Shown here one piece after another: positions 1,837-52,777 of a DNA stretch of 64,000 nt; the first letter of the stretch is position 1, and each line of letters opens with the position of its first letter. The DNA lies in assembly GCA_011050465.1 (NCBI GenBank), contig DRFQ01000001.1, positions 37,225 through 101,224 of the forward strand, given 5' to 3'. The DNA is from Candidatus Nealsonbacteria bacterium. Lineage in GTDB: Bacteria > Patescibacteriota > Minisyncoccia > Minisyncoccales > RBG-13-36-15. Both the position numbers and the translations under genes were made by a program. Below the pieces are notes generated by a model. That model was not told the origin of the DNA. It saw only the letters and a list, made by a program, of their open reading frames with translations, and made no database searches.

Positions 1837-2061
1837 CTATCTCCCTTCGGACAGCCCCTTTGTTAAAGAGGCTGGGTCGTCTCGGGTTTTCTCGCCTATC
1901 TGGTCCAGCCTCTCAACTGAAAGTTGAGGGCTGTCGGAATTTGATTTATTCAAATTCCGAGACGAAGAAATAAATAAATTTTTAGCTGCCTCCCAAATTT
2001 CCGGCTGGTTTTGTTTTGTTTTCATCCAGAACCACCATTCGTCGCTTCGTTCCTTAGACAC
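1837..2061 (-). pseudogene. fragment duplicating the C-terminus of the adjacent glycoside hydrolase
   Basis: The 74-aa ORF begins ...DEWWFWMKTKQNQPEIWEAAKNLF. This parallels the end of the upstream 351-aa protein (AEWWFWMKSVQNNSQIWDEARNLF). The 19-nt string CATCCAGAACCACCATTCG is identical at 2023-2041 and 2228-2246. There is no convincing start or SD. Confidence 0.5.
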
Positions 2062-2155
2062 CTTCGGTTTCTAACGGTCGCCTTCGGCGACCTGTTTTTC
2101 CACCACGGGGAGATACCCAATCTCCCCGACCCCCTCTTTGCGAATGGTGGTTCTG
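2027..2155. repeat. structured element, copy A, bounded by a 15-bp perfect inverted repeat
   Basis: CAGAACCACCATTCG (2027-2041) pairs with CGAATGGTGGTTCTG (2141-2155). The interior has hairpins GGTCGCC-TTC-GGCGACC and GGGGAGA-TACCCAA-TCTCCCC. Confidence 0.8.
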
Positions 2156-7498: not shown

Positions 7499-7600
7499 AC
7501 AAAAAACCGCCTTCTTGGCGATTGATAAAGTTAACTAACAACTAAAAACTATAAACTAAAAACTAGAAAAATGGGTCGTCTAGCGGATGAGATTAGAACC
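7499..7600. repeat. junction repeat J5: terminator module plus AT-rich TAAAAACT-type tract plus T-arm-like fragment
   Basis: 7499-7568 is near-identical to 48031-48100 (CAAAAAACCGCCTTCTTGGCGATTnATAAAGTTAACTAAnAACTAAAAACTATAAACTAA...). 7576-7600 (GTCGTCTAGCGGATGAGATTAGAACC) is related to 8291-8311. Confidence 0.8.
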
Positions 7601-7749
7601 TGTTTTTGTCTATTAAAAATAAAAAAACCCTGACTTCGTTGGAAGTAGAGGCATTAAATGTGCTATTAGAATCTTCTCCTATCGAGAAGTCTTTCGAGAT
7701 TATTGATAAGCATATTGCATCAGCAAGGCGAGAATTTACTCGATACCGA

Positions 7750-8172
7750 TTATCCTATTTCTTCAAATTGTACTTGTCCAGAAGGAAAAATCTTACCAAG
7801 TATCATTTTTACTTTTAGCTGAGGATATTTGCTCAAGATAATTTCTTTAGCTTTTTTCATTTCTGAAGCATGGAATTCGCATTCCTTTTTAAAGGAATCA
7901 AACTTAGAACTTCCTCCATATGCTCCACAATCTGTATGGTTAGATAAAATTATTTCGCTGATCCTGTGAAGATTAACCGAAATATCAATTTGGCTTAAGA
8001 TAAAAGCTCTGTCTGATGAGCTCTTAGGAGAAAGTAATGATTTTACTCCTCCTGCTACAGATACAATATCACAATCTCCTAATGCTCCTTGTCTTTCTAA
8101 GAGCTCTTTTATCGGTTTACCAAGCCTAAAATCCATACAGTGTAGTATAAAAGCTTTACAATGATGTTCCAT
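7750..8172 (-). CDS. beta-carbonic-anhydrase-like small protein
   Basis: 140 aa with HCMDFRL (CxDxR) and HTDCGA (HxxC) motifs. These are the zinc-ligand pattern of beta-class carbonic anhydrases, although the protein is shorter than canonical enzymes. Confidence 0.45.
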   Translation of the reverse strand: MEHHCKAFILHCMDFRLGKPIKELLERQGALGDCDIVSVAGGVKSLLSPKSSSDRAFILSQIDISVNLHRISEIILSNHTDCGAYGGSSKFDSFKKECEFHASEMKKAKEIILSKYPQLKVKMILGKIFPSGQVQFEEIG

Positions 8173-9046: not shown

Positions 9047-11212
9047 TTAAAACGGAACCAGTTTCCTTTTGGCTAGCTCACCTTTAGCTAGCTCACTTTG
9101 ACTAATGGCTGGTTTAATTTTGAATTCTTTCCTTTGGTTAAATTCTTCTTGTTTGCCCTTGTTCCACTGCTTAACCGGCCTTAGATATCCAACAATTCGT
9201 GAGTAAACTTCACAAGGTTGTTTAATAATACATTGGGGGCAGTGAAAATGTTCTCCAGCTAAATACCCGTGAGCGGGACAAATTGAAAAGGTGGGAGTAA
9301 TAGTAATATAAGGTAAATAAAAATTATTAAAGGTTTTTTTAATCAATGCTTTAACAGTTTCAATATCAGAAATTCGTTCTCCTAAAAAGAGGTGCAAGAC
9401 CGTACCACCAGTATATTTTTTTTGAAGATTATCCTGAAGCTTCAGGGCCCCAAAAGCATCATCAGTATAATCTACGGGTAATTGTGAACTGTTGGTATAA
9501 TAAGGTACCTCTTTGGTTCCGGCAGTAATTATATCTGGATATTTTTCTTTATCTTTCAGGGCTAGTCTATAAGCAGTTGCTTCAGCGGGGGTGGCCTCAA
9601 GATTATACAAATTTACGCTGTCTTTCTGGTATTTCACTAATCTTTCTCTCATAAATTCTAAGATTTCGCTGGCAAATCTTAATCCCCGTCGGGACCCAAT
9701 GTTTTCTCCAATAAAATTAAGCAGGGCCTCGTTCATCCCAACTAAACCAATGGTTGAAAAGTGATTACCAAAATACTGGCCCCTCATTTTCTTCATTCCT
9801 TCCAGATAACGCTTAGAGTAAGGATAAAGTCCTTTTTCTACAAAATCCTCTAAAGTCTTCCTTTTGATATCTAAACTCTCTTTAGCCAAGTCCATCATCT
9901 TGCCTAATTTCTCGAAAAATTCTCTTTTAGTTTTGGAAAGATAGCCTATTCGGGGCAAATTTATCGTTACCACGCCTACTGATCCGGTTAGAGGATAAGA
10001 GCCGAAAAGCCCTCCCCCTCTCTGGTAAAGCTCTCTATTGTCAAGACGAAGCCGACAACACATACTCCTGGTATCTTCCGGTTTCATGTCTGAGCGAATA
10101 AAATTAGCAAAATAATTAATCCCATATTTAGCCGTAGCTTCCCACATCGGATTTAAATTAGGGTCTTGCCAATCAAAATCTTTGGTAATATTAATAGTAG
10201 GAATGGGGAAATGAAAGGGCCTTCCTCTGGCGTCTCCTTCTAACATTGTCTCGTAAAACGCTCTGTTGAAAACATCCATCTCTTCTTGAAACTCACCGTA
10301 AGTTTCCTTTTGGGACTTGCCGCCGATAATTACTGGCTGTTTAGCCAGGGTTGGGGAAGGTTTAATGTCTAAAGTTAAATTTGTAAAAGGACATTGGAAC
10401 CCTACCCGCGTGGGAATTGAACAATTAAACATAAACTCCTGAATTGATTGTTTGACTTCTCTGTAGGTTAGGCCGTCATATCTAATGAAGGGAGCTAACA
10501 AAGTATCAAAACTAGCAACAGCTACAGCTCCCGCGCATTCCCCCTGAAGCGTATAAAAGAAATTAACTAATTGTCCTAAAGCTGTTTGAAAATGCTTGGC
10601 CGGTTTGGATTCTGTTTTGCCGGTAACTCCGCCAAATCCCTTTATTAATAAATCATAAAGATCCCAACCCATGCAATATGGGCCCAAGGTATCTAAGTTG
10701 TGCAAATGGAAGTCGCCCGATTCGACAGCTTCTCTGATTTCTCTTGGATAGATTTTGTTTAACCAATATCTTTTAGTAATATTTGAAACCCCGTAATGAT
10801 TTAAGCCCTGTAAAGAATAAGCCATATTAGCATTTTCTTGAACCTGCCAGTCAATCTCTTCGATATATTTATCTAACATTTCTACCGATTCATCTACCAT
10901 TCCGACTGCTTCTCGAATTATTCTTCTCTGCTCTCGGTATAAAATATAGGCCTTGGCTGCCTCAACTAATCCCTCTAAAATTAAAATCTCCTCAACGATA
11001 TCCTGGACTTGTTCAACGTGAGGGATTTCTTCGGCTTTAAAGCGACGATTTAAAATTTGAACCATTTTATTAGAAACTCTTTTTGATTTCTTTCCGTCGC
11101 CCTGGCCGGTAGCAGTTATAGATTTAAAAATAGCATCCGTAATTTTTTTTTGCTCAAATTTTACAATTGTATCATCTCTTTTTTTAATTTTTGTAATTTT
11201 ATTGCGGAACAT
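9047..11212 (-). CDS. nrdD: anaerobic ribonucleoside-triphosphate reductase, class III, with N-terminal ATP-cone
   Basis: 721 aa. It has an ATP-cone-like N-terminus (VKFEQKKITDAIFK), a C-terminal Zn-ribbon CPAHG...CPQC, and the glycyl-radical region RIVGYLRPV. Confidence 0.95.
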   Translation of the reverse strand: MFRNKITKIKKRDDTIVKFEQKKITDAIFKSITATGQGDGKKSKRVSNKMVQILNRRFKAEEIPHVEQVQDIVEEILILEGLVEAAKAYILYREQRRIIREAVGMVDESVEMLDKYIEEIDWQVQENANMAYSLQGLNHYGVSNITKRYWLNKIYPREIREAVESGDFHLHNLDTLGPYCMGWDLYDLLIKGFGGVTGKTESKPAKHFQTALGQLVNFFYTLQGECAGAVAVASFDTLLAPFIRYDGLTYREVKQSIQEFMFNCSIPTRVGFQCPFTNLTLDIKPSPTLAKQPVIIGGKSQKETYGEFQEEMDVFNRAFYETMLEGDARGRPFHFPIPTINITKDFDWQDPNLNPMWEATAKYGINYFANFIRSDMKPEDTRSMCCRLRLDNRELYQRGGGLFGSYPLTGSVGVVTINLPRIGYLSKTKREFFEKLGKMMDLAKESLDIKRKTLEDFVEKGLYPYSKRYLEGMKKMRGQYFGNHFSTIGLVGMNEALLNFIGENIGSRRGLRFASEILEFMRERLVKYQKDSVNLYNLEATPAEATAYRLALKDKEKYPDIITAGTKEVPYYTNSSQLPVDYTDDAFGALKLQDNLQKKYTGGTVLHLFLGERISDIETVKALIKKTFNNFYLPYITITPTFSICPAHGYLAGEHFHCPQCIIKQPCEVYSRIVGYLRPVKQWNKGKQEEFNQRKEFKIKPAISQSELAKGELAKRKLVPF

Positions 11213-12463: not shown

Positions 12464-13669
12464 TTATGGAATAAAAATTTTAAATATTTTTTTAATTTTG
12501 GTGGTAAACTTTTCGCCAAAGACTGGCTGCTCTTGTTCAGAGTCTAATCCGCTCAAAACCAAACCAGCAACCAAAGCAAAAGAAGGATCTTGCTCCAGGC
12601 CTGCAATGCCTTTGGGATAACCAATCTTGCAGGACAGCTTTAGTTCTTTCTTGGCCATCTCTCCTATTTTGGGTAATTTCGCCCCTCCACCGGTTAAAAC
12701 AACACCTGCGGGAAGTTTACCTTGACGAGCAATTTTTTTAAGTTCTTTGTTGGTTAGGTCAAAAATTTCTGAAATCCTAGCTTCAATAATCTTTCCTAAC
12801 ATTTTTAGAGAAAAAACTAAAGGCTCTTCTTTGTGGATGTTTTTAATCTTTTCTTTCTTTTTTCCGCTATGAAGAAAACAAGAACCATACTCCAGTTTTA
12901 TTCTTTCAGCAGTATCTATGTCACACCTTAACCCAATGGCAATATCATTAGTAATATGGCCGGAGCCAATTGGAAAAATAGAGGCCTGAATCAGGTCTCC
13001 TTCTTCAAAAACAGCCAGGCTGGTTGTACCCGCCCCTATGTCCAAAAGAACAACTCCCAGTTCTTTCTGCCTGGGGGTCAGAACTGCTCTCGAGGAAGCC
13101 AAAGGAGAAACAAAAATATCTTGAATCTGAAGGCCGGCGTTTAGAACGGTATCAGTTAAATTCTTAATATAAGGAGAGAATCCACAAAGAGCTAAAATTT
13201 CTGCTTCCAGCCTTATGCCCTTCATCCCCAAGGGTTCTTTAATGCCTTTTTCTCCATCAATAATAAATTCTTTAACAATAGTATCTAAGACTTCTTTATT
13301 AGAGGGTAAAGAAAATGTCTGGGCAGCCTGAAGCACTCTATCAATATCTTCCGGAGAAATCTTCTGATCAGCCCTCGAAACAGCAATTACCCCCCGAGAA
13401 GGAGTAGAAAAAATGTGGCTACCACTAATATTTACAATAGCTGAATTAATTTTTTGCTCAAATGAATTCTGAAATTCTTCCAGGGCCGAACGAAGACTAT
13501 TAGAGGCTTGTTCAACATTAATTATTGTTCCTTTCCTAATGCCCTCTGACGGAAAACGAAAATATTTTAAAACTTCGGGCTCTGAATCGCCTTTTCTTTC
13601 TTCCACTACTAAAATCTTTATGTTTTCTGACCCGATATCAAGACCAGTGATGAATTTAGCCTTCAGCAT
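12464..13669 (-). CDS. ftsA: cell division protein FtsA
   Basis: 401 aa, actin-like ATPase (GLDIGSENIK, DIGAGTTS, LTGGGAKLP) with a C-terminal amphipathic helix KIKKIFKIF. Confidence 0.9.
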   Translation of the reverse strand: MLKAKFITGLDIGSENIKILVVEERKGDSEPEVLKYFRFPSEGIRKGTIINVEQASNSLRSALEEFQNSFEQKINSAIVNISGSHIFSTPSRGVIAVSRADQKISPEDIDRVLQAAQTFSLPSNKEVLDTIVKEFIIDGEKGIKEPLGMKGIRLEAEILALCGFSPYIKNLTDTVLNAGLQIQDIFVSPLASSRAVLTPRQKELGVVLLDIGAGTTSLAVFEEGDLIQASIFPIGSGHITNDIAIGLRCDIDTAERIKLEYGSCFLHSGKKKEKIKNIHKEEPLVFSLKMLGKIIEARISEIFDLTNKELKKIARQGKLPAGVVLTGGGAKLPKIGEMAKKELKLSCKIGYPKGIAGLEQDPSFALVAGLVLSGLDSEQEQPVFGEKFTTKIKKIFKIFIP

Positions 13670-28149: not shown

Positions 28150-28233
28150 GCCGCGGTGGCGGAATTGGTTTACGCGTACGACTCAAAATCGTATGACCGA
28201 AAGGTCGTGTGGGTTCGAGTCCCACCCGCGGCA
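28150..28233 (+). tRNA. tRNA-Leu (anticodon CAA), type II with long variable arm, CCA not encoded
   Basis: Manual fold. Acceptor GCCGCGG/CCGCGGC, anticodon stem TACGA/TCGTA with loop CTCAAAA, variable arm GACC-GAAA-GGTC, T-arm GTGGG-TTCGAGT-CCCAC, discriminator A. Confidence 0.95.
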
Positions 28234-44700: not shown

Positions 44701-46581
44701 TTATTCTACGGTCACGCTCTTTGCGAGATTGCGGGGTTTATCAACATCGCAACCTCTTAAAACTCCCATATGATAAGCAAAGAGCTGCAAAGGAATGACG
44801 CTTAAAATTGGGGTTAACATTTCAAGGGTCTTTGGAATATAAATTACGTCATCTGCTAAATCTTTTATCTTTCTATTCCCTTCGGTAGTTAAAACTATCA
44901 CCTTTCCTTTTCTGGCTTTGATTTCTTCGATATTAGAAATCATCTTTTCATAAACTGAATCTTCTGGACAAATAGCCATTGTTGGGAAGTCTTCGTCAAT
45001 CAAAGTAATGGGACCGTGCTTCATTTCGCCCGCAGCGAATCCTTCTGCGTGAAGATAAGATGTTTCCTTTAGTTTGATAGCGCCTTCAAGAGCAATGGGA
45101 TAATTATATTTTCGTCCTAAATAAGCAAAATTATTATACTTAGAATATTTTATAGCAATTTTTTGAATCTTATTATTCGTTTTTAAAATTTCTCTCGCTT
45201 TCTCCGGAATAAGTGCTAATTCTTGAGCAATCCGCCGACCTGTCGCTAAAGACATGTCACGTTGTCGTCCCAAAAATAAAGTCAAAAGAGCCAAAACAAC
45301 TAACTGAGAAATGAAGGCTTTTGTTGAAGCTACAGCAATCTCTGGTCCAGCGTGATTATATATACCGGCATCCGTTTCGCGGGCAACCATACTTCCCACT
45401 ACATTAGTAATACCCAAAGTAAGAATATTTTTCCGCTTAGCTTCACGAACTACTGCCAAAGTGTCGGCTGTCTCCCCGGATTGGCTGATAGTTATTACGG
45501 CCGTAGAAGGATCGAGAATGGATTTTTTATAGCGGAATTCTGAACCATAGTCTGTCTCAACAGGAATCCCGGCATACTCTTCAAGCATATATTCTCCCAC
45601 TAACGCGGCACAGCGAGCAGTCCCGCAAGCTCCGATAATGATTCTTTGGATTTCACGTAGTTTATTTTCCACCCCCGCTATCCCTCCTAATCTTGCCAGT
45701 CCCTCTTTCTTAATCAATCTTCCCCGTAAAGCATTTTCAATTACTTCTGGTGCCTCAAAAATTTCTTTTAACATAAAATGAGGGTAGCCTGATTTTTGGG
45801 CCTTTTCTAAATCCCAATCTATTTCTTCAACCCGTTCGGTTTTACTCGGGGTTGATCCCGAGTTTATTGAAAGATTAATTGGTTTTTCCTTTTTGTTTTG
45901 AGAAAGATCGGTAATAAAAAAAATCTCGGGAGTTAAAACGGCAACCTCTCCATCATCAAGATAAACCACCTTTTTCGTCCTGCCAATAATGGCTGAAGGA
46001 TCTGAAGCAACGATGTATTCTTTCTCTCCCAAGCCAATCAAAAGTGGTGAAGAGTTTCTGGCTACGACAATCTTTTCTGGATCATCCCGGGAAATTATTG
46101 CCAAACCATAGGTTCCTCTAATTAATTTCAGAGCTTTTGTTACTGCTTCTTCTAAATTACCATTAAAAAATTTTTCGATCAAATGAATTATAACTTCAGT
46201 ATCGGTCTTTGATGAAAATTGATGCCCCTCTCGGGTAAGTTTTTTCCGCAGAATCTTATAATTTTCAATAATTCCATTATGGACAAGATAGATATTTTTT
46301 TTGCAATCTAAATGTGGATGAGCATTTTTCTCGTTTGGTTCCCCATGCGTGGCCCAACGAGTATGAAAAATTGCTGGACTTCCAGAAAAACCAGATTGCT
46401 TGATTTTTGCCTCCAATAAATCAATCCGGCCAGCCACTTTAATCAAATGGATTTCTTTTTTAGCTGAATCGAAAATAGCCATACCTGCCGAATCATATCC
46501 TCGGTATTCTAAACGCTTTAGGGCTTCAAGCCCAATCGATAAAGTATTCTGTTTTCCGATATAGCCAACTATGCCGCACAT
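44701..46581 (-). CDS. glmS: glutamine-fructose-6-phosphate aminotransferase
   Basis: 626 aa with the MCGIVGYIG N-terminal nucleophile, two SIS domains, and a C-terminal ...KSVTVE. Confidence 0.95.
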   Translation of the reverse strand: MCGIVGYIGKQNTLSIGLEALKRLEYRGYDSAGMAIFDSAKKEIHLIKVAGRIDLLEAKIKQSGFSGSPAIFHTRWATHGEPNEKNAHPHLDCKKNIYLVHNGIIENYKILRKKLTREGHQFSSKTDTEVIIHLIEKFFNGNLEEAVTKALKLIRGTYGLAIISRDDPEKIVVARNSSPLLIGLGEKEYIVASDPSAIIGRTKKVVYLDDGEVAVLTPEIFFITDLSQNKKEKPINLSINSGSTPSKTERVEEIDWDLEKAQKSGYPHFMLKEIFEAPEVIENALRGRLIKKEGLARLGGIAGVENKLREIQRIIIGACGTARCAALVGEYMLEEYAGIPVETDYGSEFRYKKSILDPSTAVITISQSGETADTLAVVREAKRKNILTLGITNVVGSMVARETDAGIYNHAGPEIAVASTKAFISQLVVLALLTLFLGRQRDMSLATGRRIAQELALIPEKAREILKTNNKIQKIAIKYSKYNNFAYLGRKYNYPIALEGAIKLKETSYLHAEGFAAGEMKHGPITLIDEDFPTMAICPEDSVYEKMISNIEEIKARKGKVIVLTTEGNRKIKDLADDVIYIPKTLEMLTPILSVIPLQLFAYHMGVLRGCDVDKPRNLAKSVTVE

Positions 46582-46606
46582 AAAATTATTTTTAATTCTA
46601 CATCTT

Positions 46607-46665
46607 ATTTCAAAAAAAGAAAAGAGGCCGCTGACCCGGAGGTGAAATTTCCGAGCTAGCGGCCT
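46607..46665 (-). terminator. intrinsic terminator after the GC-rich surface-protein gene
   Basis: The minus strand reads AGGCCGCT...AGCGGCCT followed by CTTTTCTTTTTTT. Confidence 0.6.
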
Positions 46666-46694
46666 TTGTCTACTATTAGTCAGTTTAGGTCAAT

Positions 46695-47435
46695 TTATTT
46701 TAGATGACGCCAGGTTAGGTGTCCTGCAATGGCGATTAATAATAATTCTCCACCCAGAAAAGTCTTCCAGAAAGGTGATTCCTCCTCTCTGGGTAATTGG
46801 CCGCCAGTTGGTGGCTGACCACCAGTTGGTGGTAGCATCTTAGGAACTTCGGCCATTGGCGTCTTATGAGCCTCAAGCGTCAGCGTCGGCGAAGGGATTG
46901 GTGTGGGTGTCGACGTTGGTGACGGTGATGGCGCCAGTGTTGGCGTGGACGTGGGCGTTGATGTCGGTGTCGGTGTTGACGTAACCCTCAGGCACGGAGG
47001 GAAGCTTTCGCTTTTCTCCGGATTAAGAGCGAGATTAACATTTATGTCCACCTCCACCCGAAGCGCGTTGGCCCGGGAGTCGACGTTGACCGTCAACAGA
47101 GGATCATACTCGAATTCCAGGACCGCGCCGCCAGCCAAATTCACGTCAACGCTCGTCATTACACCAGGGACGGGCTGGAACTTAGGGTCTCCTCCCCGCG
47201 ATGGTGGAATATGCTGCGCCAGCATGAGCGGTACGCTGTAGCTGACCTTCTTATTCGTCAAGTTCTTGACCGTGATCAGACCGAACACGTTACCGTCCGC
47301 ATCGCAACTCGCAGCGACAAGAGTCACGCGAACCGGAGCCGACGAATACGCATCGCTCTTACTGATCTGAAAAATGCTGACTACTATCAGCAGCAAAACT
47401 ACTAACAGTGAACTAAAAAAGACCCCTCTGTTCAT
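46695..47435 (-). CDS. GC-rich secreted protein with Pro/Thr linker and LPxTG-like sorting signal
   Basis: 246 aa. It has a signal/TM N-terminus, a TSTPTPTSTPTSTPTLAPSPSPTSTPTPIPSPT linker, MLPPTGGQPPTGGQ, then a hydrophobic segment and a basic tail (WRHLK). SD AAGGAGG is present. Composition is clearly GC-richer than the flanks. Confidence 0.6.
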   Translation of the reverse strand: MNRGVFFSSLLVVLLLIVVSIFQISKSDAYSSAPVRVTLVAASCDADGNVFGLITVKNLTNKKVSYSVPLMLAQHIPPSRGGDPKFQPVPGVMTSVDVNLAGGAVLEFEYDPLLTVNVDSRANALRVEVDINVNLALNPEKSESFPPCLRVTSTPTPTSTPTSTPTLAPSPSPTSTPTPIPSPTLTLEAHKTPMAEVPKMLPPTGGQPPTGGQLPREEESPFWKTFLGGELLLIAIAGHLTWRHLK

Positions 47436-47552
47436 TACTACGCCTCCTTGATACTAGGGGAGCCTGCTAACCATTAGGTTAGCTTCGCTACCAATTAGAC
47501 ACTATAACAAAGTATTCAAAGAAAGTCAAGCCCGAATAAGTCTCAGGCGGAT

Positions 47553-47620
47553 ATCAAAAAACCGCCTTCTTGCCTACCTAAATTTCGAAGAAACTTTGGC
47601 GGGCTTGGCGGTTTTTTGAT
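47553..47620. terminator. 14-bp-stem hairpin, junction J4
   Basis: ATCAAAAAACCGCC...GGCGGTTTTTTGAT is a perfect inverted repeat with A/T tracts on both sides. Its left half equals the CAAAAAACCGCCTTCTTG motif of the other junctions. Confidence 0.65.
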
Positions 47621-47641
47621 TAGATTAAACTAGAATTTAAA

Positions 47642-47929
47642 TTATTGCGGTAATGCAGATGCACAAGCGGGTATCTGCATAAGTTGTTGCAATGTTTGTT
47701 GACATTGTTGCACTGTGGCTTGTATTGTTTCCGCACACTCTGCTTGAGCCGCTGCTGTTAATTGGGGTATAACTTGGGTATCTATATTTGCTTTGCATTC
47801 TGCTTCTGCTTTTTTAGGAACACTCACTGTAAGTGTATAATAAGTCCAACCAGCCAAAGCAATTAAAATTACAATTAAAACTACAATAATGATATTTTTT
47901 GAATTGCCCATGTTTAAACTTGTTATCAA
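47642..47929 (-). CDS. small membrane-anchored Cys/Gln-rich hypothetical protein
   Basis: 95 aa (or 89 from MGNSKN). It has one TM helix, then a helical region with 4 Cys (AECKAN...AECAET...QQCQQT...PACAS). Confidence 0.45.
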   Translation of the reverse strand: MITSLNMGNSKNIIIVVLIVILIALAGWTYYTLTVSVPKKAEAECKANIDTQVIPQLTAAAQAECAETIQATVQQCQQTLQQLMQIPACASALPQ

Positions 47930-48029
47930 TATTTTAAAAAAAACCGACCTTTATATTTATATAATTATTCTATCATTAAATCGTTTTTTTAGAAATCAAC
48001 TTAATAAAATTGTATCTTTTCTTATTATA

Positions 48030-48143
48030 CCAAAAAACCGCCTTCTTGGCGATTTATAAAGTTAACTAATAACTAAAAACTATAAACTAATAACTGAAAA
48101 TTACTTTGTAATTTTTATTGGCTCCGCGGGTAGGAATCTCACT
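48030..48143. repeat. junction repeat J3: terminator module plus AT-rich tract plus tRNA-3'-end-like fragment
   Basis: 48031-48100 is near-identical to 7499-7568. 48122-48143 in reverse complement reads GTGAGATTCCTACCCGCGGAGC(CA), which resembles the T-arm/acceptor 3' half of the tRNA-Leu at 28211-28233. Confidence 0.75.
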
Positions 48144-48145
48144 GC

Positions 48146-48288
48146 TCGCTTCGCTGCGCTTTAGACACCCACGGCACTTCGTCCTGAGCTCAGTATCGAA
48201 GGATTTCTAACGTTTTCGCCTCAACGGCGAAAGCCTGTTTTCCTACACGGGAAAACACCCAGTTTTCCCGACCCCTTTCTGTGGTTCT
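48146..48288. repeat. structured element, copy B (homologous to 2042-2154)
   Basis: It shares the blocks TCGCTTCG, TTAGACACC, TTTCTAACG, a CGCC-loop-GGCGA hairpin, CCTGTTTT, CACGGG..hairpin..CCCGACCCC and TGGTTCT. Hairpin stems differ by compensatory changes. Confidence 0.75.
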
Positions 48289-48478
48289 CATCCTCCCCCT
48301 CCGCAATCATCACAAATCAAAAACACCCATAAAGGGTGTCTTGATTTTGGGAGCTCCCCCTATTGGACGCGTTTAGAACCATTGATTGGAGAAAGATGAG
48401 GGAAGAATTAGATAAATTAGCTCCTTTGGTTGCGGGACTTGGACGGTGTTAGAAGCTGTTTATTGTAGAGTATTTAAA

Positions 48479-48997
48479 CTATTTCACTTTAGCAAATAAC
48501 AAATGATCCATCAGTTTATTGTCTTTTAGGACATCTTTTCTCAATCTCCCTTCATATTTATACCCTGCTTTTTCTAAAACTCTTACCGAGGCTTTATTGA
48601 ATGGGAACACATCAGCGTATACTCTTTTTAATCCTAATTTAGTAAAGGCATACTTTGTTACCAATTTTACAGCAAAGGTCATAATTCCTTGTCCCCAATA
48701 CTTTTCTCCTAACCAGTAACCTATTTCTGCTTTATGGACTTCGATCTTATCAAGACCAATACCTCCTATAATTTTTCCATTTATATCAATAGCAAAATTA
48801 ATTTCGGTTCTCTTTTTTTTCTTTTGTAATTTTAAATTGTGGTTAATCCAAAAACGAGCATCCTTTTTCTTATAAGGATAAGGGATTCTTAAGGTATTTC
48901 TTGCTATTTTCTTACTGTTTATATTCTTTGTTAAAGACTCCTCGTCTCCTTTTCTAAGGGGCCTTAATATAAATTGTTTTGAGTGAATAGTGGGCAT
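48479..48997 (-). CDS. GNAT-family N-acetyltransferase (RimJ/RimL-like)
   Basis: 172 aa with IGYWLGEKYWGQGIMTFAVKLVTKYAF (acetyl-CoA binding motif A region). Confidence 0.85.
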   Translation of the reverse strand: MPTIHSKQFILRPLRKGDEESLTKNINSKKIARNTLRIPYPYKKKDARFWINHNLKLQKKKKRTEINFAIDINGKIIGGIGLDKIEVHKAEIGYWLGEKYWGQGIMTFAVKLVTKYAFTKLGLKRVYADVFPFNKASVRVLEKAGYKYEGRLRKDVLKDNKLMDHLLFAKVK

Positions 48998-49026
48998 AAT
49001 TATTAGCGTTTTATTTTTCTATTCTA

Positions 49027-49090
49027 TCAAAAAATCGCCTTCTTGGCGATTTTCTGAAGCTAACTCCCCCTACAGGACGCATTCAGAACC
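49027..49090. repeat. junction repeat J2
   Basis: TCAAAAAATCGCCTTCTTGGCGATTTTCTGAAGCTAACTCC... matches 50177-50218 at 38/42 positions. It is followed by CCCTACAGGACGCATTCAGAACC, related to 48355-48380. Confidence 0.8.
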
Positions 49091-49198
49091 TTAGATTGGG
49101 GTAAGATTAGGGAAAGCCTTAGAGATTTGGAACCCCTTATGGCTACTTATCTAAATCCTCTGGCTAAACGGTGTTATTAAAGACCGTTTGAGATAAAC

Positions 49199-49231
49199 AA
49201 AAAGGCCTCGATACTCTATTGAGCCGAGGCT
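49199..49231 (-). terminator. intrinsic terminator of the two-gene cassette
   Basis: Minus-strand GCCTCG-(14 nt)-CGAGGC is followed by CTTTTTG. Confidence 0.6.
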
Positions 49232-49241
49232 TTATTCCCTC

Positions 49242-49613
49242 CTATTCTTGAAGACTATCGAGAAGATTAGCAATGTTACGCACAAGACCCATTGTTGGTA
49301 TGATTTCGTCAGCTTCTGGAAAGTTAAATCTACTAACAGTGTTAACGACCACTTTGGCTCCAACTGCTTTAATCTGTGGAATTATTTTGTTTGCATCACC
49401 TGCTGGTATATCGCCAAAGTGTAGTATAACTACATCTACTCCTTTGGCAATATCAACAACTCTTTCTACGTCTGGCCCGTGGCCGAAGCCATAGCGTTCG
49501 AGATTGGTCCAGCTAACATCTAATATTTCAAAACCTTTTCTTCTTAGTAGTTGTTCAACTGACCCCCAAAGAAAAGCAAGTTTGTCTTCGTAATCAACGA
49601 TTAGAACTTTCAC
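49242..49613 (-). CDS. hypothetical protein, flavodoxin/receiver-like fold suspected
   Basis: 123 aa. It starts MKVLIVDYED... as a receiver domain does, but the usual phospho-acceptor position reads VDVVILHFGD (His, not Asp). No confident family. Confidence 0.45.
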   Translation of the reverse strand: MKVLIVDYEDKLAFLWGSVEQLLRRKGFEILDVSWTNLERYGFGHGPDVERVVDIAKGVDVVILHFGDIPAGDANKIIPQIKAVGAKVVVNTVSRFNFPEADEIIPTMGLVRNIANLLDSLQE

Positions 49614-49633
49614 GGTTAGCTCTCCTTTAAGCC

Positions 49634-50059
49634 TTAGAGGCCGGCTTCTGCCAGCTCACGGAACCAACAGGCTGCAGCAAGCAGAAAGACGAGCTGCTCA
49701 GACCTATCCGTATTATGTGGAAGATAAAGAATCCATTCCTTGTCTTCTTTAATCATATGCTCCCATTCATTGTGGGACGGGTCAAAACCACAGGCATTTC
49801 CTGGACAATTCCAGGAACGAAGTCCGTGTTCATTGTCTATATGAACATTGAATTCGAATTCTAATGCCGTTTCCCCAAAGTATTGCTTTCCTGCGGTAAC
49901 AAGACGCTGCTGAATTCTCTCTATCTGTTCTCTGGTTAGCGTCTTAAAGAAACGAACCACACTAATGTGGAAATAAATGTTAGCACTTGCACTATAGTTA
50001 CCTTTCTTTGGGAAAGAAACTTCTACTCGTAATTTCTCAGTATGATCGTGTAGCGGCAT
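49634..50059 (-). CDS. hypothetical protein
   Basis: 141 aa with a Cys/His-containing segment WNCPGNACGFDPSHNEWEH. SD GGAGG is present and a TTGACT -35-like box lies upstream. No family recognised. Confidence 0.45.
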   Translation of the reverse strand: MPLHDHTEKLRVEVSFPKKGNYSASANIYFHISVVRFFKTLTREQIERIQQRLVTAGKQYFGETALEFEFNVHIDNEHGLRSWNCPGNACGFDPSHNEWEHMIKEDKEWILYLPHNTDRSEQLVFLLAAACWFRELAEAGL

Positions 50060-50176
50060 TTCTTCTCTCCTCCGTTCGTGGCTGTTCTTGGCAATCCTTA
50101 TTCAATTGAGAAAGTGCGAAACTCTCTCTGTTAATTTTATATCTTAACGGCTTCCGAAAATAAGTCAAGTCTACTA

Positions 50177-50236
50177 TCAAAAAACCGCCTCTATGGCGAT
50201 TTTCTGAAGCTAACTCCGGGAGTAGGACTCGAACCG
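50177..50236. repeat. junction repeat J1 abutting the leuS stop codon
   Basis: Terminator module TCAAAAAACCGCCTCTATGGCGATTTTCTGAAGCTAACTCC plus GGGAGTAGGACTCGAACCG. The reverse complement CGGTTCGAGTCCTACTCCCGGAG corresponds to T-loop, T-stem 3' strand and acceptor 3' strand. Confidence 0.8.
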
Positions 50237-52777
50237 TTAAATCACGATATTGATTAATTTTCCCGGGACGAAGATCACTCTCTTAATTGTTCTACTTTTT
50301 AACCATTTTTTTACTTTTTCCAGGGAAGTTGCCAATTCTCTGGCTTTTTTTTCTGAAATACCAGCTTCAACATCAATTTTATCACGGACTTTACCATTTA
50401 TCTGAATAATCATCACTATAACCTTTTCTTTAATTAATTTTGGGTTATATTTTGGCCAAGGTTGATTATGAATGGAGTTTCGTATATTAAAATGTTTATC
50501 CTCCGACCCTCGTCGGCCGTAGCCGACTTCGGTCGGCGAAGGCCGAAGCTTTCTAGTCAAAGAGGACCAGAGCTCTTCGGTCAAATAAGGAGTGAAGGGC
50601 GATAAAATTTTCAAGAAATTTTTAAAATCCTCTTTTCCTAATCCATCCTTTCCTTCTATTTGCCAGGCATTACAAAATTCCATTAATGAGCTAACAGCTG
50701 TGTTAAATTTTAAAGACTCAATATCTTCTGAAACTTTTTTAATTGTTCTGTGGAGTATTTTTTTCAAATCTAGGGAGCCTTGAGATTCTGGAGCAGCAAG
50801 AAATTGTCCGGCTAATTTCCAAACTCTTTCCAAAAACCTTTTAGATCCCTTTACTCCTTTCGTGTCCCAGGCAATCATTTGTTTAAAGGGCCCCATAAAC
50901 ATCTCGTAAATTCTCAGAGTATCGGCACCATATTCTTCTATAATTTGTTCAGGACGTATAACATTGCCTTTGGACTTGGACATTTTAATTCCTCCCTCGC
51001 CAAGAATTATTCCGTGAGAAGTTCGTTTTTTGTAAGGTTCTGAGCCAAGAGATTTTGGTACAGCCCTGATATCCCACAAAAATTTATAGATAAAACGAGA
51101 ATATAATAAATGTAAGGTGGTATGCTCCATGCCCCCATTGTACCAGTCCACCGGCATCCAATATTTAAGTAATTTCTGATCGGCTAACTTTTTTTCGTTT
51201 TTAGGGTCGCAATAGCGAAGGTAATACCAATTGGAACCTGCCCAGTTTGGCATAACATCGGTTTCTCTCTTAGCTTTGCGGTCGCATTTTGGACATTTAG
51301 TGTTCACCCATTTCTCAAGGGCTGCCAACGGAGATTCGCCGGTCTCGGTGGGCTGATATTTTTCAACAAGGGGGAGTTCAACCGGTAAATCCTTTTCTGG
51401 TACAGACACCCAGCCACATCCTTCACACCTAACCATTGGAATTGGCTCTCCCCAATATCTTTGGCGAGAAAAAATCCAATCTCTTAATTTATAATTGATC
51501 GTTTTTTTTGCCAGACGCTTGCTGGCTAGCCACTCAATAATTCTTTCTTTTGCCGCCCCGGATTTCATTCCATTAAATCTGCCAGAATTAATTAATATCC
51601 CTTCTCCTTCATAGGCCCTCTCCTTGAGTCCACCTGAAACGACCAAAGAAGCTCTTTTTGAAGTTGACCTTGAGGGCTGCGCAGGGTGGATTACCTCAAT
51701 TATTGGCAGGTTATATTTTCTGGTAAAATCAAGGTCTCTTTGGTCGTGAGCAGGTACTGCCATAATGGCTCCGGTACCGTAGTGAATTAAAACATAATCT
51801 GCTATAAAAATTGAAATTTGCCGATTGTTTATTGGATTAATGGCTTTAACTCCCCTAATTTCTACTCCAGTTTTTTCTTTAATCTCGCTTAGTCTTTCTT
51901 TTTCAGTTTTCTTCTTGGCTTGTTCAATATATTTCTTAACGCTTTCTAAATTCTCAATTTTTGATTCTAATTGTTCAATTACCGGATACTCCGGAGATAA
52001 AACTAAATACGTACAACCAGATAAAGTGTCTGGCCTAGTGGTAAATACGGAAATCTCGTGTTTCGTGCTTTTAATTTTGAATTTTATTTCTGTTCCTTCG
52101 GATTTTCCTATCCAATCTCTTTGTAACGTTTTGACTCTTTCTGGATAATCAATGTTATCTAAATCTTTAATCAATCTCTCGGCGTATTTGGTGATTTTTA
52201 ACATCCACTGTTCTTTTTCTTTTTTAATAACTTTTTGACCGCAGCGTTCACAGTGACCATCGACTACTTCTTCATTGGCCAAACCGATCTTGCACGAGGG
52301 ACACCAATTGATTGGTATCTCGGCTTTATAAGCCAAACCCTTTTTAAAAAGTTGGACAAATATCCATTGGGTCCATCTGTAATAAGCCGGGTCGGTAGTG
52401 TTAATTTCTCGGCTCCAATCAAAAGAAAGTCCTAGTCTTTTTTCCTGACGTTTAAAAAAAGCGGCGTTTTTCTCGGTAACGGTTCTTGGATGAATCCCCG
52501 TCTTGACGGCGTAGTTTTCGGTTGGAAGCCCGAAAGCATCCCAACCCATCGGGAACAAAACATTAAACCCCTCCATCCTTCTTTTCCGAGCAATAATGTC
52601 TAAGGCTATATAACTCCGGCAATGTCCTACGTGCAATCCTTCACCCGATGGGTAAGGAAATTCAACTAAAATATAGCTTTTTGGTTTTCTAAGCAAGTCT
52701 TTGGCTAGATAAAAATCTCTTTCTTCCCAAATCCTCTGCCACTTCTTTTCAATTTTTTGCGGATTATATATCTCCAT
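50237..52777 (-). CDS. leuS: leucyl-tRNA synthetase
   Basis: 846 aa with the HIGH-type motif EGLHVGH, KMSKSKGN, a CP1 editing domain and Zn-binding CxxC pairs. Confidence 0.95.
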   Translation of the reverse strand: MEIYNPQKIEKKWQRIWEERDFYLAKDLLRKPKSYILVEFPYPSGEGLHVGHCRSYIALDIIARKRRMEGFNVLFPMGWDAFGLPTENYAVKTGIHPRTVTEKNAAFFKRQEKRLGLSFDWSREINTTDPAYYRWTQWIFVQLFKKGLAYKAEIPINWCPSCKIGLANEEVVDGHCERCGQKVIKKEKEQWMLKITKYAERLIKDLDNIDYPERVKTLQRDWIGKSEGTEIKFKIKSTKHEISVFTTRPDTLSGCTYLVLSPEYPVIEQLESKIENLESVKKYIEQAKKKTEKERLSEIKEKTGVEIRGVKAINPINNRQISIFIADYVLIHYGTGAIMAVPAHDQRDLDFTRKYNLPIIEVIHPAQPSRSTSKRASLVVSGGLKERAYEGEGILINSGRFNGMKSGAAKERIIEWLASKRLAKKTINYKLRDWIFSRQRYWGEPIPMVRCEGCGWVSVPEKDLPVELPLVEKYQPTETGESPLAALEKWVNTKCPKCDRKAKRETDVMPNWAGSNWYYLRYCDPKNEKKLADQKLLKYWMPVDWYNGGMEHTTLHLLYSRFIYKFLWDIRAVPKSLGSEPYKKRTSHGIILGEGGIKMSKSKGNVIRPEQIIEEYGADTLRIYEMFMGPFKQMIAWDTKGVKGSKRFLERVWKLAGQFLAAPESQGSLDLKKILHRTIKKVSEDIESLKFNTAVSSLMEFCNAWQIEGKDGLGKEDFKNFLKILSPFTPYLTEELWSSLTRKLRPSPTEVGYGRRGSEDKHFNIRNSIHNQPWPKYNPKLIKEKVIVMIIQINGKVRDKIDVEAGISEKKARELATSLEKVKKWLKSRTIKRVIFVPGKLINIVI

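What the first reader, a model, noticed from the sequence alone, without database searches (positions are those of the whole stretch)
46590..50236. Accessory island between glmS and leuS built from self-contained cassettes separated by a recurring junction module with tRNA-3'-end-like fragments
The 3.6 kb between two core genes holds four modules: the LPxTG-like protein, the 95-aa Cys-rich protein, the GNAT, and the 141-aa plus 123-aa pair. Each has its own SD and terminator, none is a housekeeping function, and composition differs from the flanks (46.7-47.4 kb clearly GC-rich, 49.2-50.1 kb intermediate). The modules are separated by the same sequence module. The terminator core CAAAAAACCGCCTTCTTGGCGATT occurs at 47555, 48031, 49028 (variant) and 50178 (variant), and also at 7500. 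J1 (50177-50218) and J2 (49027-49068) match at 38/42 positions. Each terminator is preceded, in minus orientation, by a T-arm-like fragment. Directly after the leuS stop codon the minus strand reads CGGTTCGAGTCCTACTCCCGGAG, which is T-loop, T-stem 3' strand and acceptor 3' strand. I count 17/23 identities to the 3' end of the tRNA-Leu gene at 28211-28233. A degenerate copy ending in CCA is at 48121-48143, and related copies are at 49064-49090 and 48354-48380. Cassettes bracketed by imperfect direct repeats of a tRNA 3' fragment are the classic footprint of repeated site-specific integration (tandem accretion at an att site). No integrase or other recombinase is present in the window, so either the mobilising enzyme is elsewhere or this is an uncharacterised cassette-capture arrangement.
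Basis: partly seen in the sequence, partly recalled or inferred. Interest (0 to 1): 0.7.

Follow-up and report, generated by a model that had tools for sequence, protein, structure and literature searches.

The report
Fossil integration hotspot with serine-integrase scars
The stretch between leuS and glmS in this Patescibacteria genome is a small accessory-gene island whose junctions are decayed attachment sites of mobile elements that use a large serine integrase to insert into the end of the tRNA-Asn gene. It is a known kind of island, made by an integrase family I did not find described in four full-text literature searches.

Summary
The repeats are real and far above chance. They consist of two separable things.

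1. **A hairpin terminator fused to a promoter** (AATCGCCAAGAAGGCGGTTTTTTGGTAGAAT). The exact 20-nt core occurs in more than 119 metagenome contigs, also in front of housekeeping genes. It is a general transcription-boundary module of this clade, not a recombination scar.

2. **The "tRNA-like" pieces.**
   - Two pieces (50214-50236 and 48121-48143) are 3' ends of tRNA-Asn, not tRNA-Leu.
   - Two others (49064-49180 and 48354-48452) encode, on the opposite strand, the last ~33 codons of a large serine recombinase (LSR).

In 68 reference-genome loci, mostly from Patescibacteria, this recombinase family was found. In 31 of them its gene ends inside or next to a tRNA on the opposite strand (23 tRNA-Asn, 7 tRNA-Gln, 1 tRNA-Arg). 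One Levybacteria locus shows two such elements in tandem at tRNA-Asn.

I read the leuS-proximal half of the island as: truncated tRNA-Asn | 141+123-aa cassette | attR | GNAT cassette | attR | native tRNA-Asn downstream flank.

The 95-aa and 246-aa genes show no such scars. No recombinase body is present in the window.

The parts
50214..50236 (-). tRNA-Asn 3' fragment (T-loop, T-stem 3' strand, acceptor 3' strand, discriminator G). It starts directly after the leuS stop codon. I read it as the remnant of the target tRNA (the attL/attB left half).
   Evidence: The sequence is. It matches the genome's own tRNA-Asn at 19/23 (L131). It has the same downstream flank, TTAGCTTCAGAAA plus hairpin, as intact tRNA-Asn genes in L092 and L042.
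50177..50213 (-). Flank TTAGCTTCAGAAA plus hairpin terminator (J1, right half).
   Evidence: It is 91% identical to J2 over 44 nt.
50141..50168 (-). Promoter-like site (TTGACT, 16 nt, TAAGAT) in front of the 141-aa gene.
   Evidence: consensus match only.
49634..50059 (-). 141-aa cargo gene, no known family.
49242..49613 (-). 123-aa cargo gene, no known family. It forms one unit with the 141-aa gene.
49064..49180 (+). Remnant B: the last 38 codons plus stop of a large serine recombinase gene (LPLQDAFRTLDWGKIRES...). Its first ~27 nt are the tRNA-Asn-like core read on the other strand (GGTTCTGAATGCGTCCTGTAGGGGGAG). I read it as attR of the 141/123-aa cassette.
   Evidence: A profile built only from recombinase-linked tails scores it at E = 2.7e-5. 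It is the best of 3139 six-frame pieces.
49027..49057 (-). Hairpin terminator overlapping the promoter (TCGCCA, 17 nt, TGATAGAAT) of the GNAT gene (J2).
48479..48997 (-). GNAT acetyltransferase cargo gene.
   Evidence: Pfam Acetyltransf_3, E = 3.4e-31..
48354..48452 (+). Remnant A: the last 32 codons plus stop of a large serine recombinase gene (LPLLDAFRTIDWRKMREELDKLAPLVAGLGRC*). I read it as attR of the GNAT cassette. A second copy of the core motif overlaps its stop codon (48427-48456).
   Evidence: E = 3.7e-5 with the independent tail profile..
48145..48350 (-). Block X: about 205 nt of non-coding DNA starting with a hairpin terminator (48320-48342). It is a paralogue of the sequence that directly follows the genuine tRNA-Asn in the same genome.
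   Evidence: 196 identical columns in a 309-column alignment with L131 15380-15665. That alignment also spans the att pieces on either side of X. nhmmer E = 1e-91 and 1e-96. Three compensatory pair changes in one hairpin. No Rfam match.
48121..48143 (-). tRNA-Asn 3' fragment ending in GGAGCCA. It is the distal repeat that closes block X.
   Evidence: 15 consecutive bases identical to the own tRNA-Asn. L131 has the equivalent fragment in the same position.
48035..48120 (-). AT-rich spacer plus hairpin terminator/promoter (TGGTATAAT) in front of the 95-aa gene. The same 65 nt occur at 7500-7564.
47642..47929 (-). 95-aa membrane-anchored Cys/Gln-rich protein. It has no att remnant of its own.
47553..47620 (-). 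Long hairpin containing half of the terminator core, followed by a GGGCTTGACTT promoter-like site (47501-47529).
   Evidence: (inverted repeat I6).
46695..47435 (-). 246-aa GC-rich secreted protein with a Pro/Thr linker and an LPPTGG motif. It is an old resident next to glmS, not a recent cassette.
   Evidence: The homologue is in the same position, next to glmS, in L008 (14633-15325). Its terminator looks homologous by eye. GC is 0.53 vs 0.58.
7500..7600 (-). Outside the island: a solo copy of the att core motif (7574-7600, ACAGGTTCTAATCTCATCCGCTAGACGACCCA), plus the same spacer and terminator as at 48035-48120.

Best explanation
**What it is.** The leuS-glmS interval is an accessory-gene island. 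Its leuS-proximal half (50236 to 48121) is a fossil integration hotspot for mobile elements that insert into the 3' end of tRNA-Asn using a large serine recombinase (LSR).

**The recombinase, as shown in relatives.**
- The LSR gene points towards the tRNA. Its own 3' end runs through the attachment site.
- In the free or attP form, the protein ends ...W-L-x-x-W-D-D-F-R-T plus about 25 more residues.
- After integration, the gene body ends inside the tRNA gene instead (...W-L-P-R-V-D-S-N...stop, the antisense of CCA, acceptor and T-loop).
- The displaced ~33-codon tail, joined to the tRNA-like core, is left at the far end of the element as attR.
- New elements enter the restored tRNA and push older ones outwards.

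**How I read the window (inferred).**
- J1 is the truncated target tRNA.
- The 141+123-aa pair and the GNAT gene are two integrase-less cargo units. Each ends in an attR (remnants B and A).
- Block X plus the 48121 fragment is the native sequence that follows tRNA-Asn in this genome.
- The two units are now immobile, or movable only by an integrase supplied from elsewhere.

**The terminator.** The recurrent hairpin is a separate, clade-wide terminator/promoter that bounds transcription units. It happens also to follow tRNA-Asn genes.
For: 1. **Identity of the tRNA pieces.** J1 and the 48121 fragment match the genome's own tRNA-Asn (19/23, and 15 consecutive bases). They carry the same flanks as intact tRNA-Asn genes in L092, L042 and L131.

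2. **The motif is coding on the opposite strand.**
   - Changes among copies fall at third codon positions and are synonymous or conservative.
   - A profile search of 1.84 billion proteins returned 277 hits. Among the 150 listed, most are ORFs under 100 aa and a few are longer proteins that carry the match at their C-terminus.
   - Six of those longer proteins align to recombinase-family proteins that have Pfam Recombinase and Zn_ribbon_recom domains, with E from 1e-82 to 6e-6.

3. **The window fragments are such tails.** A profile built only from those recombinase tails finds exactly the two island fragments: E = 2.7e-5 and 3.7e-5, with the next hit at 0.8.

4. **The recombinase targets tRNA-Asn.**
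   - In 31 of 68 loci with this recombinase in reference genomes, the gene's 3' end overlaps or abuts a tRNA on the opposite strand: 23 Asn, 7 Gln, 1 Arg.
   - ORFs of 487-502 aa end inside the tRNA. Two of them (L154, L143) have Resolvase, Recombinase and Zn_ribbon_recom domains. The 529-aa L173 recombinase has Resolvase and Recombinase.
   - Sequence-level overlaps are shown.

5. **Tandem accretion seen directly.** L173 (Levybacteria) reads: rpoD, tRNA-Asn, 529-aa LSR with a MerR-type HTH gene, about 6 kb of cargo, then a second (frameshifted) LSR that still has its tail.

6. **The same genome has a primary site.** Its rpoD-tRNA-Asn locus is followed by about 10 kb of small accessory genes with two more tail remnants. 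L042 shows at least 7 single-gene units after rpoD-tRNA-Asn.

7. **The interval is variable in relatives**.
Against: - No intact tRNA-Asn lies at this island, and relatives have no tRNA after leuS. How tRNA-Asn-derived junctions came to lie here is not shown.
- No recombinase body is in the window or in the 17.7 kb at the true tRNA-Asn locus. The rest of the genome was not searched.
- All seven contigs of this population are 100% identical across the island. No presence/absence polymorphism or excision was seen.
- The exact crossover point and the extent of attP and attB are inferred, not determined.
- The acceptor-like part of many motif copies differs from the host's own tRNA-Asn (L042). This fits a crossover at the extreme 3' end of the tRNA but was not tested.
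- The distance between the motif and the hairpin varies (5-15 nt), so the hairpin is probably not part of the site.
Confidence: 0.75

Rival explanations
1. The junction similarity is nothing more than a ubiquitous terminator family, and the tRNA-like strings are chance T-loop look-alikes.
For: - The exact terminator core is in more than 119 metagenome contigs.
- 84 of 125 copies are followed at once by a TGnTAnAAT-type -10 element, with a median of 7 nt to the next ATG.
- Only 27 of 125 copies have an att-like piece upstream.
- The module also precedes an engB-like housekeeping gene.
Against: - The fragments match the genome's own tRNA-Asn and share its flanks.
- Two fragments encode recombinase tails at E of about 3e-5, against 0.8 for the next six-frame piece.
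- Block X after remnant A is a paralogue of the sequence after the real tRNA-Asn.
Confidence: 0.04
2. No integration ever took place between leuS and glmS. Instead, a segment of the rpoD-tRNA-Asn hotspot, with its scars and cargo, was copied or moved here. The mechanism would be homologous or illegitimate recombination between dispersed copies of the terminator/promoter and att modules, possibly after DNA uptake.
For: - There is no intact tRNA here, and relatives have none.
- J1 starts exactly at the leuS stop codon.
- Block X and its closing fragment duplicate the true tRNA-Asn flank.
- Blocks of homology the size of one gene are shared between otherwise unrelated contigs. Their ends often lie within about 70 nt of a module.
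- L055 and L109 share 4.1 kb at 91% identity. The homology breaks at a shared terminator, after which the two carry different cassettes.
Against: - J1 plus its flank is about the size of a minimal serine-integrase attB, so it could itself have served as a secondary site.
- The order (tRNA-type left half at J1, then tail-type left halves at B and A, then native flank) is exactly what successive integration predicts.
Confidence: 0.17
3. It is an integron-like array: cassettes with attC-type sites and the integrase missing (a CALIN).
For: - There is an array of short one- or two-gene units in one orientation, each ending in a conserved site, and no integrase nearby.
- The core GTTCTAAC resembles the RYYYAAC box of attC sites. 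This is from memory and was not tested.
Against: - The site has no partner inverted repeat. It is asymmetric, with no R''/L'' to L'/R' pairing in the sequences.
- The units carry their own promoters.
- No tyrosine recombinase was found in 777 kb of such loci, using queries that passed a positive control.
- The site is explained as the end of a serine recombinase gene.
Confidence: 0.02
4. The ~33-codon units are functional small genes or RNA elements kept by selection at the 3' ends of genes, rather than dead scars.
For: - There are hundreds of copies with a protein-like substitution pattern.
- 11 of 21 long copies have TTG, GTG or CTG directly before the conserved Leu.
Against: - The reading frame across the upstream hairpin is not conserved, and no ribosome-binding site is shared.
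- Many copies have a stop codon at that position. Most copies are cut to 10-15 codons.
- The same peptide is the C-terminus of complete recombinases.
Confidence: 0.07

Closest known systems
Genomic islands built by successive integration at tRNA genes, as in the tycheposon islands of Prochlorococcus (bioRxiv 10.1101/2020.12.28.424599)
   Same: - A streamlined genome.
- Islands at fixed sites next to a tRNA.
- New elements push older ones further into the island.
- Partial tRNAs and fragmented integrases lie scattered through the island. The paper says this in its own words.
   Different: - There, 910 of 937 elements carry a tyrosine recombinase. Here the enzyme is a large serine recombinase.
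- The host is a Patescibacteria lineage.
- The island in the window has lost the intact tRNA.
- Each cargo unit here has its own terminator/promoter module.
CIMEs (cis-mobilisable elements) and the accretion-mobilisation model of streptococcal integrative elements (from my own knowledge; no paper read here)
   Same: Cargo segments flanked by att sites but lacking an integrase, sitting in tandem with or next to related elements at one target site.
   Different: - Those elements use tyrosine integrases.
- Mobilisation in trans has been shown experimentally there. Here it is only inferred.
SSV-type integrases of archaeal fuselloviruses, where attP lies inside the integrase gene and integration splits it (from my own knowledge)
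   Same: The attachment site lies within the integrase reading frame and mimics the target tRNA. Integration therefore separates part of the gene and leaves gene fragments as scars.
   Different: - SSV integrases are tyrosine recombinases and are split into a short N-terminal and a long C-terminal part.
- Here the enzyme is a serine recombinase, and only the last ~30 codons are exchanged. The integrated gene stays nearly full length (487-529 aa).
Large serine integrases of phages and mobile elements (phiC31, Bxb1, SPbeta, CcrAB type)
   Same: The domain set of Resolvase, Recombinase and zinc ribbon. A MerR/HTH gene lies next to the integrase in L173.
   Different: The well-studied members that I know of target protein-coding genes or intergenic sites rather than a tRNA 3' end, and their attP does not overlap the integrase's own 3' end. 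This is from my own knowledge. Two of my four full-text searches addressed this and found no description.

Membership tests
tRNA-targeted integrative-element island (tandem accretion) | Inserted segments are bounded by direct repeats derived from the 3' end of the target tRNA. | tested here: met
   J1, B, A and the 48121 fragment all align with the tRNA-Asn 3' end plus its flank.
tRNA-targeted integrative-element island (tandem accretion) | An intact target tRNA lies at one end of the island. | tested here: not met
   Only a 23-nt fragment follows leuS. ARAGORN and Rfam find no tRNA there. The feature is met at the genome's other locus, rpoD-tRNA-Asn.
tRNA-targeted integrative-element island (tandem accretion) | An integrase gene, or its remnants, lies inside the island. 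| tested here: met
   Remnants only: two C-terminal tail fragments. No gene body is present.
tRNA-targeted integrative-element island (tandem accretion) | Content differs between related genomes while the flanks are conserved. | tested here: met
   L010 has an empty site and L008 has different genes. Within the population itself there is no variation.
tRNA-targeted integrative-element island (tandem accretion) | Excision or circular junctions, or empty sites, in the population. | not testable with these tools
   This needs read-level data from SRR1555743, SRR1555744, SRR1555748 and SRR7787142.
Large serine recombinase element | The integrase has Resolvase, Recombinase and Zn-ribbon domains. 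| tested here: met
   Met in relatives: L154 and L143 have all three domains, and L173 has Resolvase and Recombinase. In the window only the last 32-38 codons survive.
Large serine recombinase element | Short attP and attB sites (about 40-50 bp) with a central crossover dinucleotide. | tested here: inconclusive
   Comparing the attP-form and integrated-form C-termini places the exchange near the GGAGCCA end of the tRNA. The exact site was not determined.
Integron / CALIN | attC sites with paired inverted core sites forming a hairpin. | tested here: not met
   The motif has no inverted partner, and copies are asymmetric. This rests on reading the sequences. No attC model was available.
Integron / CALIN | An IntI tyrosine recombinase and mostly promoterless cassettes. 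| tested here: not met
   No tyrosine recombinase in 777 kb of such loci (with a positive control). The units carry their own promoter-like sites.
SSV-type partitioned integrase | attP lies inside the integrase gene, so integration separates part of the gene. | tested here: met
   The gene ends inside the tRNA in integrated copies. The tail is found separately, or in the tandem junction of L173.
SSV-type partitioned integrase | The enzyme is a tyrosine recombinase. | tested here: not met
   The Resolvase catalytic domain is present instead.

The most novel reading that the evidence does not exclude
Patescibacteria carry a widespread family of large serine integrases aimed at the 3' end of tRNA-Asn or tRNA-Gln, a family I did not find described.

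- Their attP lies inside the integrase's own last ~30 codons, so integration swaps the enzyme's C-terminus. This could act as a built-in directionality switch.
- Around them, integrase-less one-gene units have accumulated, each with its own terminator/promoter and tail-plus-core site.
- These units would be mobilised in trans. That would give these reduced genomes an integron-like way of collecting and shuffling accessory genes at rpoD-tRNA-Asn and at secondary sites such as leuS-glmS.
Probability: 0.3. Interest if true: 0.75.

Novelty: new variant of a known kind. Interest (0 to 1): 0.55.

Why it matters
**Gene acquisition in Patescibacteria.** These bacteria have tiny genomes, and from my own knowledge little is established about how they gain genes. 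This island, together with the arrays at rpoD-tRNA-Asn in the same and related genomes, points to one concrete route. That route is serine-integrase elements that target tRNA-Asn and leave stacks of small accessory genes.

**Annotation.** The scars are easy to mistake for tRNA fragments or for small ORFs. Hundreds of ORFs, most under 100 aa, in public databases are in fact integrase tails.

**Tools.** An integrase family with a conserved, universal target (the end of tRNA-Asn) and a C-terminus that changes on integration could also interest people who develop serine integrases for genome engineering.

**Transcription signals.** The clade-wide 30-nt terminator/promoter module is a useful landmark for annotating transcription units in these genomes.

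Tried and rejected
- **Known RNA families.** Rfam finds only tRNA-Leu in the window at gathering threshold. At E up to 10 it gives nothing credible in 46500-50400. tmRNA, RNase P, SRP, 6S and riboswitch readings of 48100-48470 and 49060-49230 were considered and dropped.
- **A small ORF in block X.** The reading frames differ between the two copies, so it is not coding.
- **Riboswitch before GNAT** (aptamer, terminator, ORF). Dropped once the segment proved to be coding on the other strand.
- **DNA uptake sequence.** Copy density is too low: 5 copies in 64 kb.
- **REP/RAYT or IS200/IS605-type hairpin repeats, and IS110 bridge RNA.** No such transposase was seen, and the hairpin is explained as a terminator/promoter.
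- **Tyrosine integrase.** None in the window or in 777 kb of related loci. The queries were valid.
- **My first serine-recombinase query failed.** That part is void. I repeated the test with real family members.
- **Search for a full-length gene.** The first search with the tail peptides found only short ORFs. The exhaustive profile search was needed to find the longer proteins.
- **attR copies in the 68 recombinase loci.** The tail profile found few. Most elements probably extend beyond the 10-kb flanks.
- **Literature.** Four full-text searches gave no description of this integrase family, or of such arrays, in Patescibacteria.

Full report
**Organism and layout**

The best-named LeuS homologues are from Patescibacteria/Parcubacteria. 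All genes from leuS (50237-52777) to glmS (44701-46581) lie on the minus strand.

Between them are five genes:
- 141 aa (49634-50059)
- 123 aa (49242-49613)
- a GNAT acetyltransferase (48479-48997)
- 95 aa (47642-47929)
- a GC-rich 246-aa protein (46695-47435)

There are also about 370 nt of non-coding DNA at 48100-48470. Only the GNAT matches a family above its cutoff.

**Check of the observation**

- The 24-nt terminator core occurs at 7500, 48031, 49028 and 50178. None is expected by chance. A half copy sits in a longer hairpin at 47553-47620.
- J1 and J2 share 44 nt at 91%. 48354-48404 and 49064-49114 share 51 nt at 82%. 7500-7564 and 48031-48095 share 65 nt at 95%.
- The composition shift is real.
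- The window holds one tRNA gene, Leu-CAA, at 28150.

**Variability of the interval**

Seven contigs from several samples carry the identical LeuS and the identical island, 100% over 3.8 kb. They represent one population and say nothing about older events.

Relatives with 71-73% LeuS identity differ:
- L010 (GCA_022574775.1) has leuS and glmS 475 nt apart.
- L008 has a different set of genes between them. It does include a homologue of the 246-aa protein, again next to glmS and again GC-rich (0.58).
- L009 and L011 have leuS followed by POR genes and no glmS at this position.

So the interval is a variable spot. The 246-aa gene, however, is an old resident.

**The hairpin is a general terminator/promoter**

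Read in the direction of the genes, it is AATCGCCAAGAAGGCGGTTTTTTGGTAGAAT. That is a hairpin with a T-run, which overlaps a promoter-like site (-35 TCGCCA or TTGCCA, a 17-nt spacer, TGnTAGAAT).

- Of 125 copies with full flanks, 84 are followed at once by such a -10 element.
- The median distance from the -10 to the next ATG is 7 nt.
- In L027 the module precedes two copies of a gene I read as engB. Genes I read as typA and obg lie close by. These names come from the N-terminal sequences and were not checked against a family library.

The module therefore marks transcription-unit boundaries in this clade and is not itself a recombination scar.

**The tRNA-like pieces are tRNA-Asn**

In other contigs the same hairpin, with the same short flank (TTAGCTCCAGAAA), directly follows intact tRNA-Asn(GTT) genes: L092, L042 and L022.

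The window's own genome has its tRNA-Asn just downstream of dnaG-rpoD, at the other end of the same 385-kb contig (L131 15621-15693). Its 3' end is GGTTCGAATCCTACCCGCGGAG.
- J1 matches it at 19/23, against 17/23 for tRNA-Leu.
- The 48121-48143 fragment shares 15 consecutive bases with it.

**The second kind of piece is the end of a recombinase gene**

Upstream of many hairpins lies a conserved motif, AAACAGGTTCTAACATCGTCC-N7-GGAGC. I counted 88 copies in 777 kb.

Its variation has a period of three. On the strand opposite to the cassettes it reads D-D-V-R-T. Longer copies read L-(A/P)-L-x-D-(D/A)-F-R-T-x-x-W, then about 20 residues, then a stop. The changes between copies are synonymous or conservative.

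The window has two long copies:
- 49064-49180: LPLQDAFRTLDWGKIRESLRDLEPLMATYLNPLAKRCY*
- 48354-48452: LPLLDAFRTIDWRKMREELDKLAPLVAGLGRC*

How the protein was identified:
- A word-indexed search found only ORFs of 30-78 aa.
- An exhaustive profile search of 1.84 billion proteins found 277 hits. Among the 150 listed, most are ORFs under 100 aa and a few are longer proteins with the match at the extreme C-terminus.
- Of those longer proteins, P0246, P0331, P0356, P0261, P0248 and P0244 align to proteins that carry Pfam Recombinase and Zn_ribbon_recom domains.
- A profile made only from these recombinase-linked tails picks out exactly the two island fragments among 3139 six-frame pieces of the window: E = 2.7e-5 and 3.7e-5, with the next at 0.8.

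**The recombinase family targets tRNA-Asn**

A scan of one genome per species returned 68 loci. Most are Patescibacteria: Parcubacteria, WWE3, and the Roizman-, Beckwith-, Levy-, Shapiro-, Gottesman- and Saccharibacteria. Some are Dehalococcoidia, and distant relatives occur in Brevundimonas.

- In 31 loci the 3' end of the gene overlaps or abuts a tRNA on the opposite strand: 23 tRNA-Asn, 7 tRNA-Gln, 1 tRNA-Arg.
- ORFs of 487-502 aa end inside the tRNA as ...WLPRVDSN...*. TGG is the antisense of CCA, and D-S-N is the antisense of the T-loop.
- L154 and L143 carry Resolvase, Recombinase and Zn_ribbon_recom domains. The 529-aa L173 enzyme carries Resolvase and Recombinase.
- The tail-bearing form ends ...WLAGWDDFRT plus about 25 residues.

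So attP lies inside the last ~30 codons of the gene, and integration exchanges them.

L173 (Levybacteria) shows the whole process:
1. rpoD, then tRNA-Asn.
2. A 529-aa recombinase with a MerR-type HTH gene.
3. About 6 kb of cargo.
4. A second, frameshifted recombinase that still has its tail.

That last junction is the attP-like joint expected between two elements in tandem.

**Reading the island**

In gene direction the order is as follows.

| Position | Element |
|---|---|
| up to 50237 | leuS stop codon |
| 50236-50214 | J1, a tRNA-Asn 3' fragment, followed by flank and hairpin |
| 50059-49242 | 141-aa and 123-aa genes |
| 49180-49064 | remnant B (tail plus core), followed by the same flank and hairpin as J1 |
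| 48997-48479 | GNAT gene |
| 48452-48354 | remnant A (tail plus core) |
| 48350-48145 | block X |
| 48143-48121 | tRNA-Asn 3' fragment ending GGAGCCA |

Block X and its closing fragment are paralogous to the sequence that directly follows the real tRNA-Asn in L131. There are 196 identical columns in a 309-column alignment, which also spans the flanking att pieces. nhmmer gives E = 1e-91.

The order is the one successive integration predicts: tRNA-type left half, cargo, tail-type site, cargo, tail-type site, native flank. This reading is an inference. What is shown is the identity of each piece.

The 95-aa and 246-aa genes have only terminator/promoter modules.

**The same genome has a primary hotspot**

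Downstream of rpoD-tRNA-Asn in L131 lie about 10 kb of small accessory genes. They include three more hairpins and two more tail remnants, at 7581-7754 and 13096-13206.

L042, from another Patescibacteria contig, shows at least 7 single-gene units after rpoD-tRNA-Asn. Most end in motif, hairpin and promoter.

Blocks of homology one gene long are shared between otherwise unrelated contigs, and their ends often lie near a module. Two contigs with 91% identical flanks carry different units beyond a shared gene.

**What is missing**

- No tyrosine recombinase is present in the window or in 777 kb of hairpin-bearing loci (the queries were validated).
- No body of the serine recombinase is in the window or in L131. 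It was detected in 2 (L087, L130) of the roughly 120 hairpin-bearing loci.
- No intact tRNA lies at the island.
- There is no polymorphism within the population.
- The crossover point has not been determined.
- Whether the junctions arose here or were copied from the rpoD-tRNA-Asn locus cannot be decided.

**Comparison with known systems**

The closest description is the building of islands by repeated integration at tRNA genes. In Prochlorococcus tycheposon islands, partial tRNAs and fragmented integrases are scattered through islands and incoming elements push older ones inwards.

Integrase-less units between att sites correspond to CIMEs. An att site inside the integrase gene recalls SSV-type integrases. 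Both of these comparisons come from my own knowledge.

The differences here are:
- a large serine recombinase,
- a tRNA 3' end as target,
- exchange of only the C-terminal tail,
- a Patescibacteria host.

Integron membership fails on site structure, on the integrase and on promoterless cassettes.

**Verdict**

The thing in the window is a decayed footprint of a known kind of process, carried out by an enzyme family whose behaviour I did not find described in four full-text searches.

Noticed in passing
window 48145-48350 (-), window 2036-2154 (-), L131 15380-15620 (-): Block X is a structured non-coding element with three copies in this genome. It has three hairpins, one of them with three compensatory pair changes, and no Rfam match. 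The copy at 2036-2154 is bracketed by a 15-nt inverted repeat (CAGAACCACCATTCG / CGAATGGTGGTTCTG) and by a duplicate of the 3' end of the upstream gene (EWWFWMK). It may be an RNA gene or a small mobile repeat.
   Followed up: partly
window 48024-48055, 49021-49057; L012-L130: A roughly 30-nt module, AATCGCCAAGAAGGCGGTTTTTTGGTAGAAT, is conserved to the base in more than 119 contigs. It combines a terminator hairpin with a promoter. The start codon follows the -10 element by a median of 7 nt, which suggests many leaderless or near-leaderless mRNAs. Why the hairpin sequence itself is so conserved is unexplained.
   Followed up: partly
window about 48165 (L005, L006 and L007 contig ends): Three independent assemblies of this population end at the same point inside block X. 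The cause may be the repeat, or structural variation at this junction.
   Followed up: no
window 47940-47960; L016, L092, L099, L101, L102, L124: A short leader motif, AAAGGTC(R)nATA, recurs about 10 nt after the -10 element. It is followed by 30-40 AT-rich bases before the ATG.
   Followed up: no
L008 13780-13830, 14440-14545, 15460-15550; window 47529-47548, 50160-50170: A GC-rich repeat ending in GGTTGCCTCGGGCTTGACTTATT precedes three genes in the L008 island. Shorter forms (GGGCTTGACTT) precede the 246-aa and 141-aa genes in the window. It looks like a second shared promoter module.
   Followed up: no
L010 12660-12800: The 'empty' leuS-glmS spacer of the relative contains a long GC-rich imperfect hairpin (GGCCAAGAGGGAA...TTCCCTCTGGCC). 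It has no Rfam match at gathering threshold.
   Followed up: partly
L154, L143, L139, L135 and others; L173 11121-11255: Integration replaces the last ~30 residues of the recombinase with residues encoded by the antisense strand of the tRNA. The integrated enzyme stays nearly full length. This could be a built-in switch between integration and excision.
   Followed up: partly
L168-L172, L175 (Brevundimonas isolates): Cultured Brevundimonas strains carry a distant homologue of the recombinase (31-32% identity), 40-75 nt from a tRNA-Asn gene on the opposite strand. This offers a culturable system in which to test the target preference.
   Followed up: no
window 46695-47435; L008 14633-15325: The GC-rich 246-aa protein has a signal/anchor, a Pro/Thr-rich linker, repeated PPTGGQ and a C-terminal hydrophobic stretch. 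It is conserved next to glmS in a relative with 73% LeuS identity. Its high GC is therefore a property of the gene and not a sign of recent transfer.
   Followed up: partly
L186 5042-5075 vs 10294-10366: A 34-nt partial tRNA-Asn repeat (88% identity) lies 5.2 kb from the tRNA-Asn that overlaps a recombinase remnant. It appears to be a delimited decayed element of about 5 kb.
   Followed up: partly
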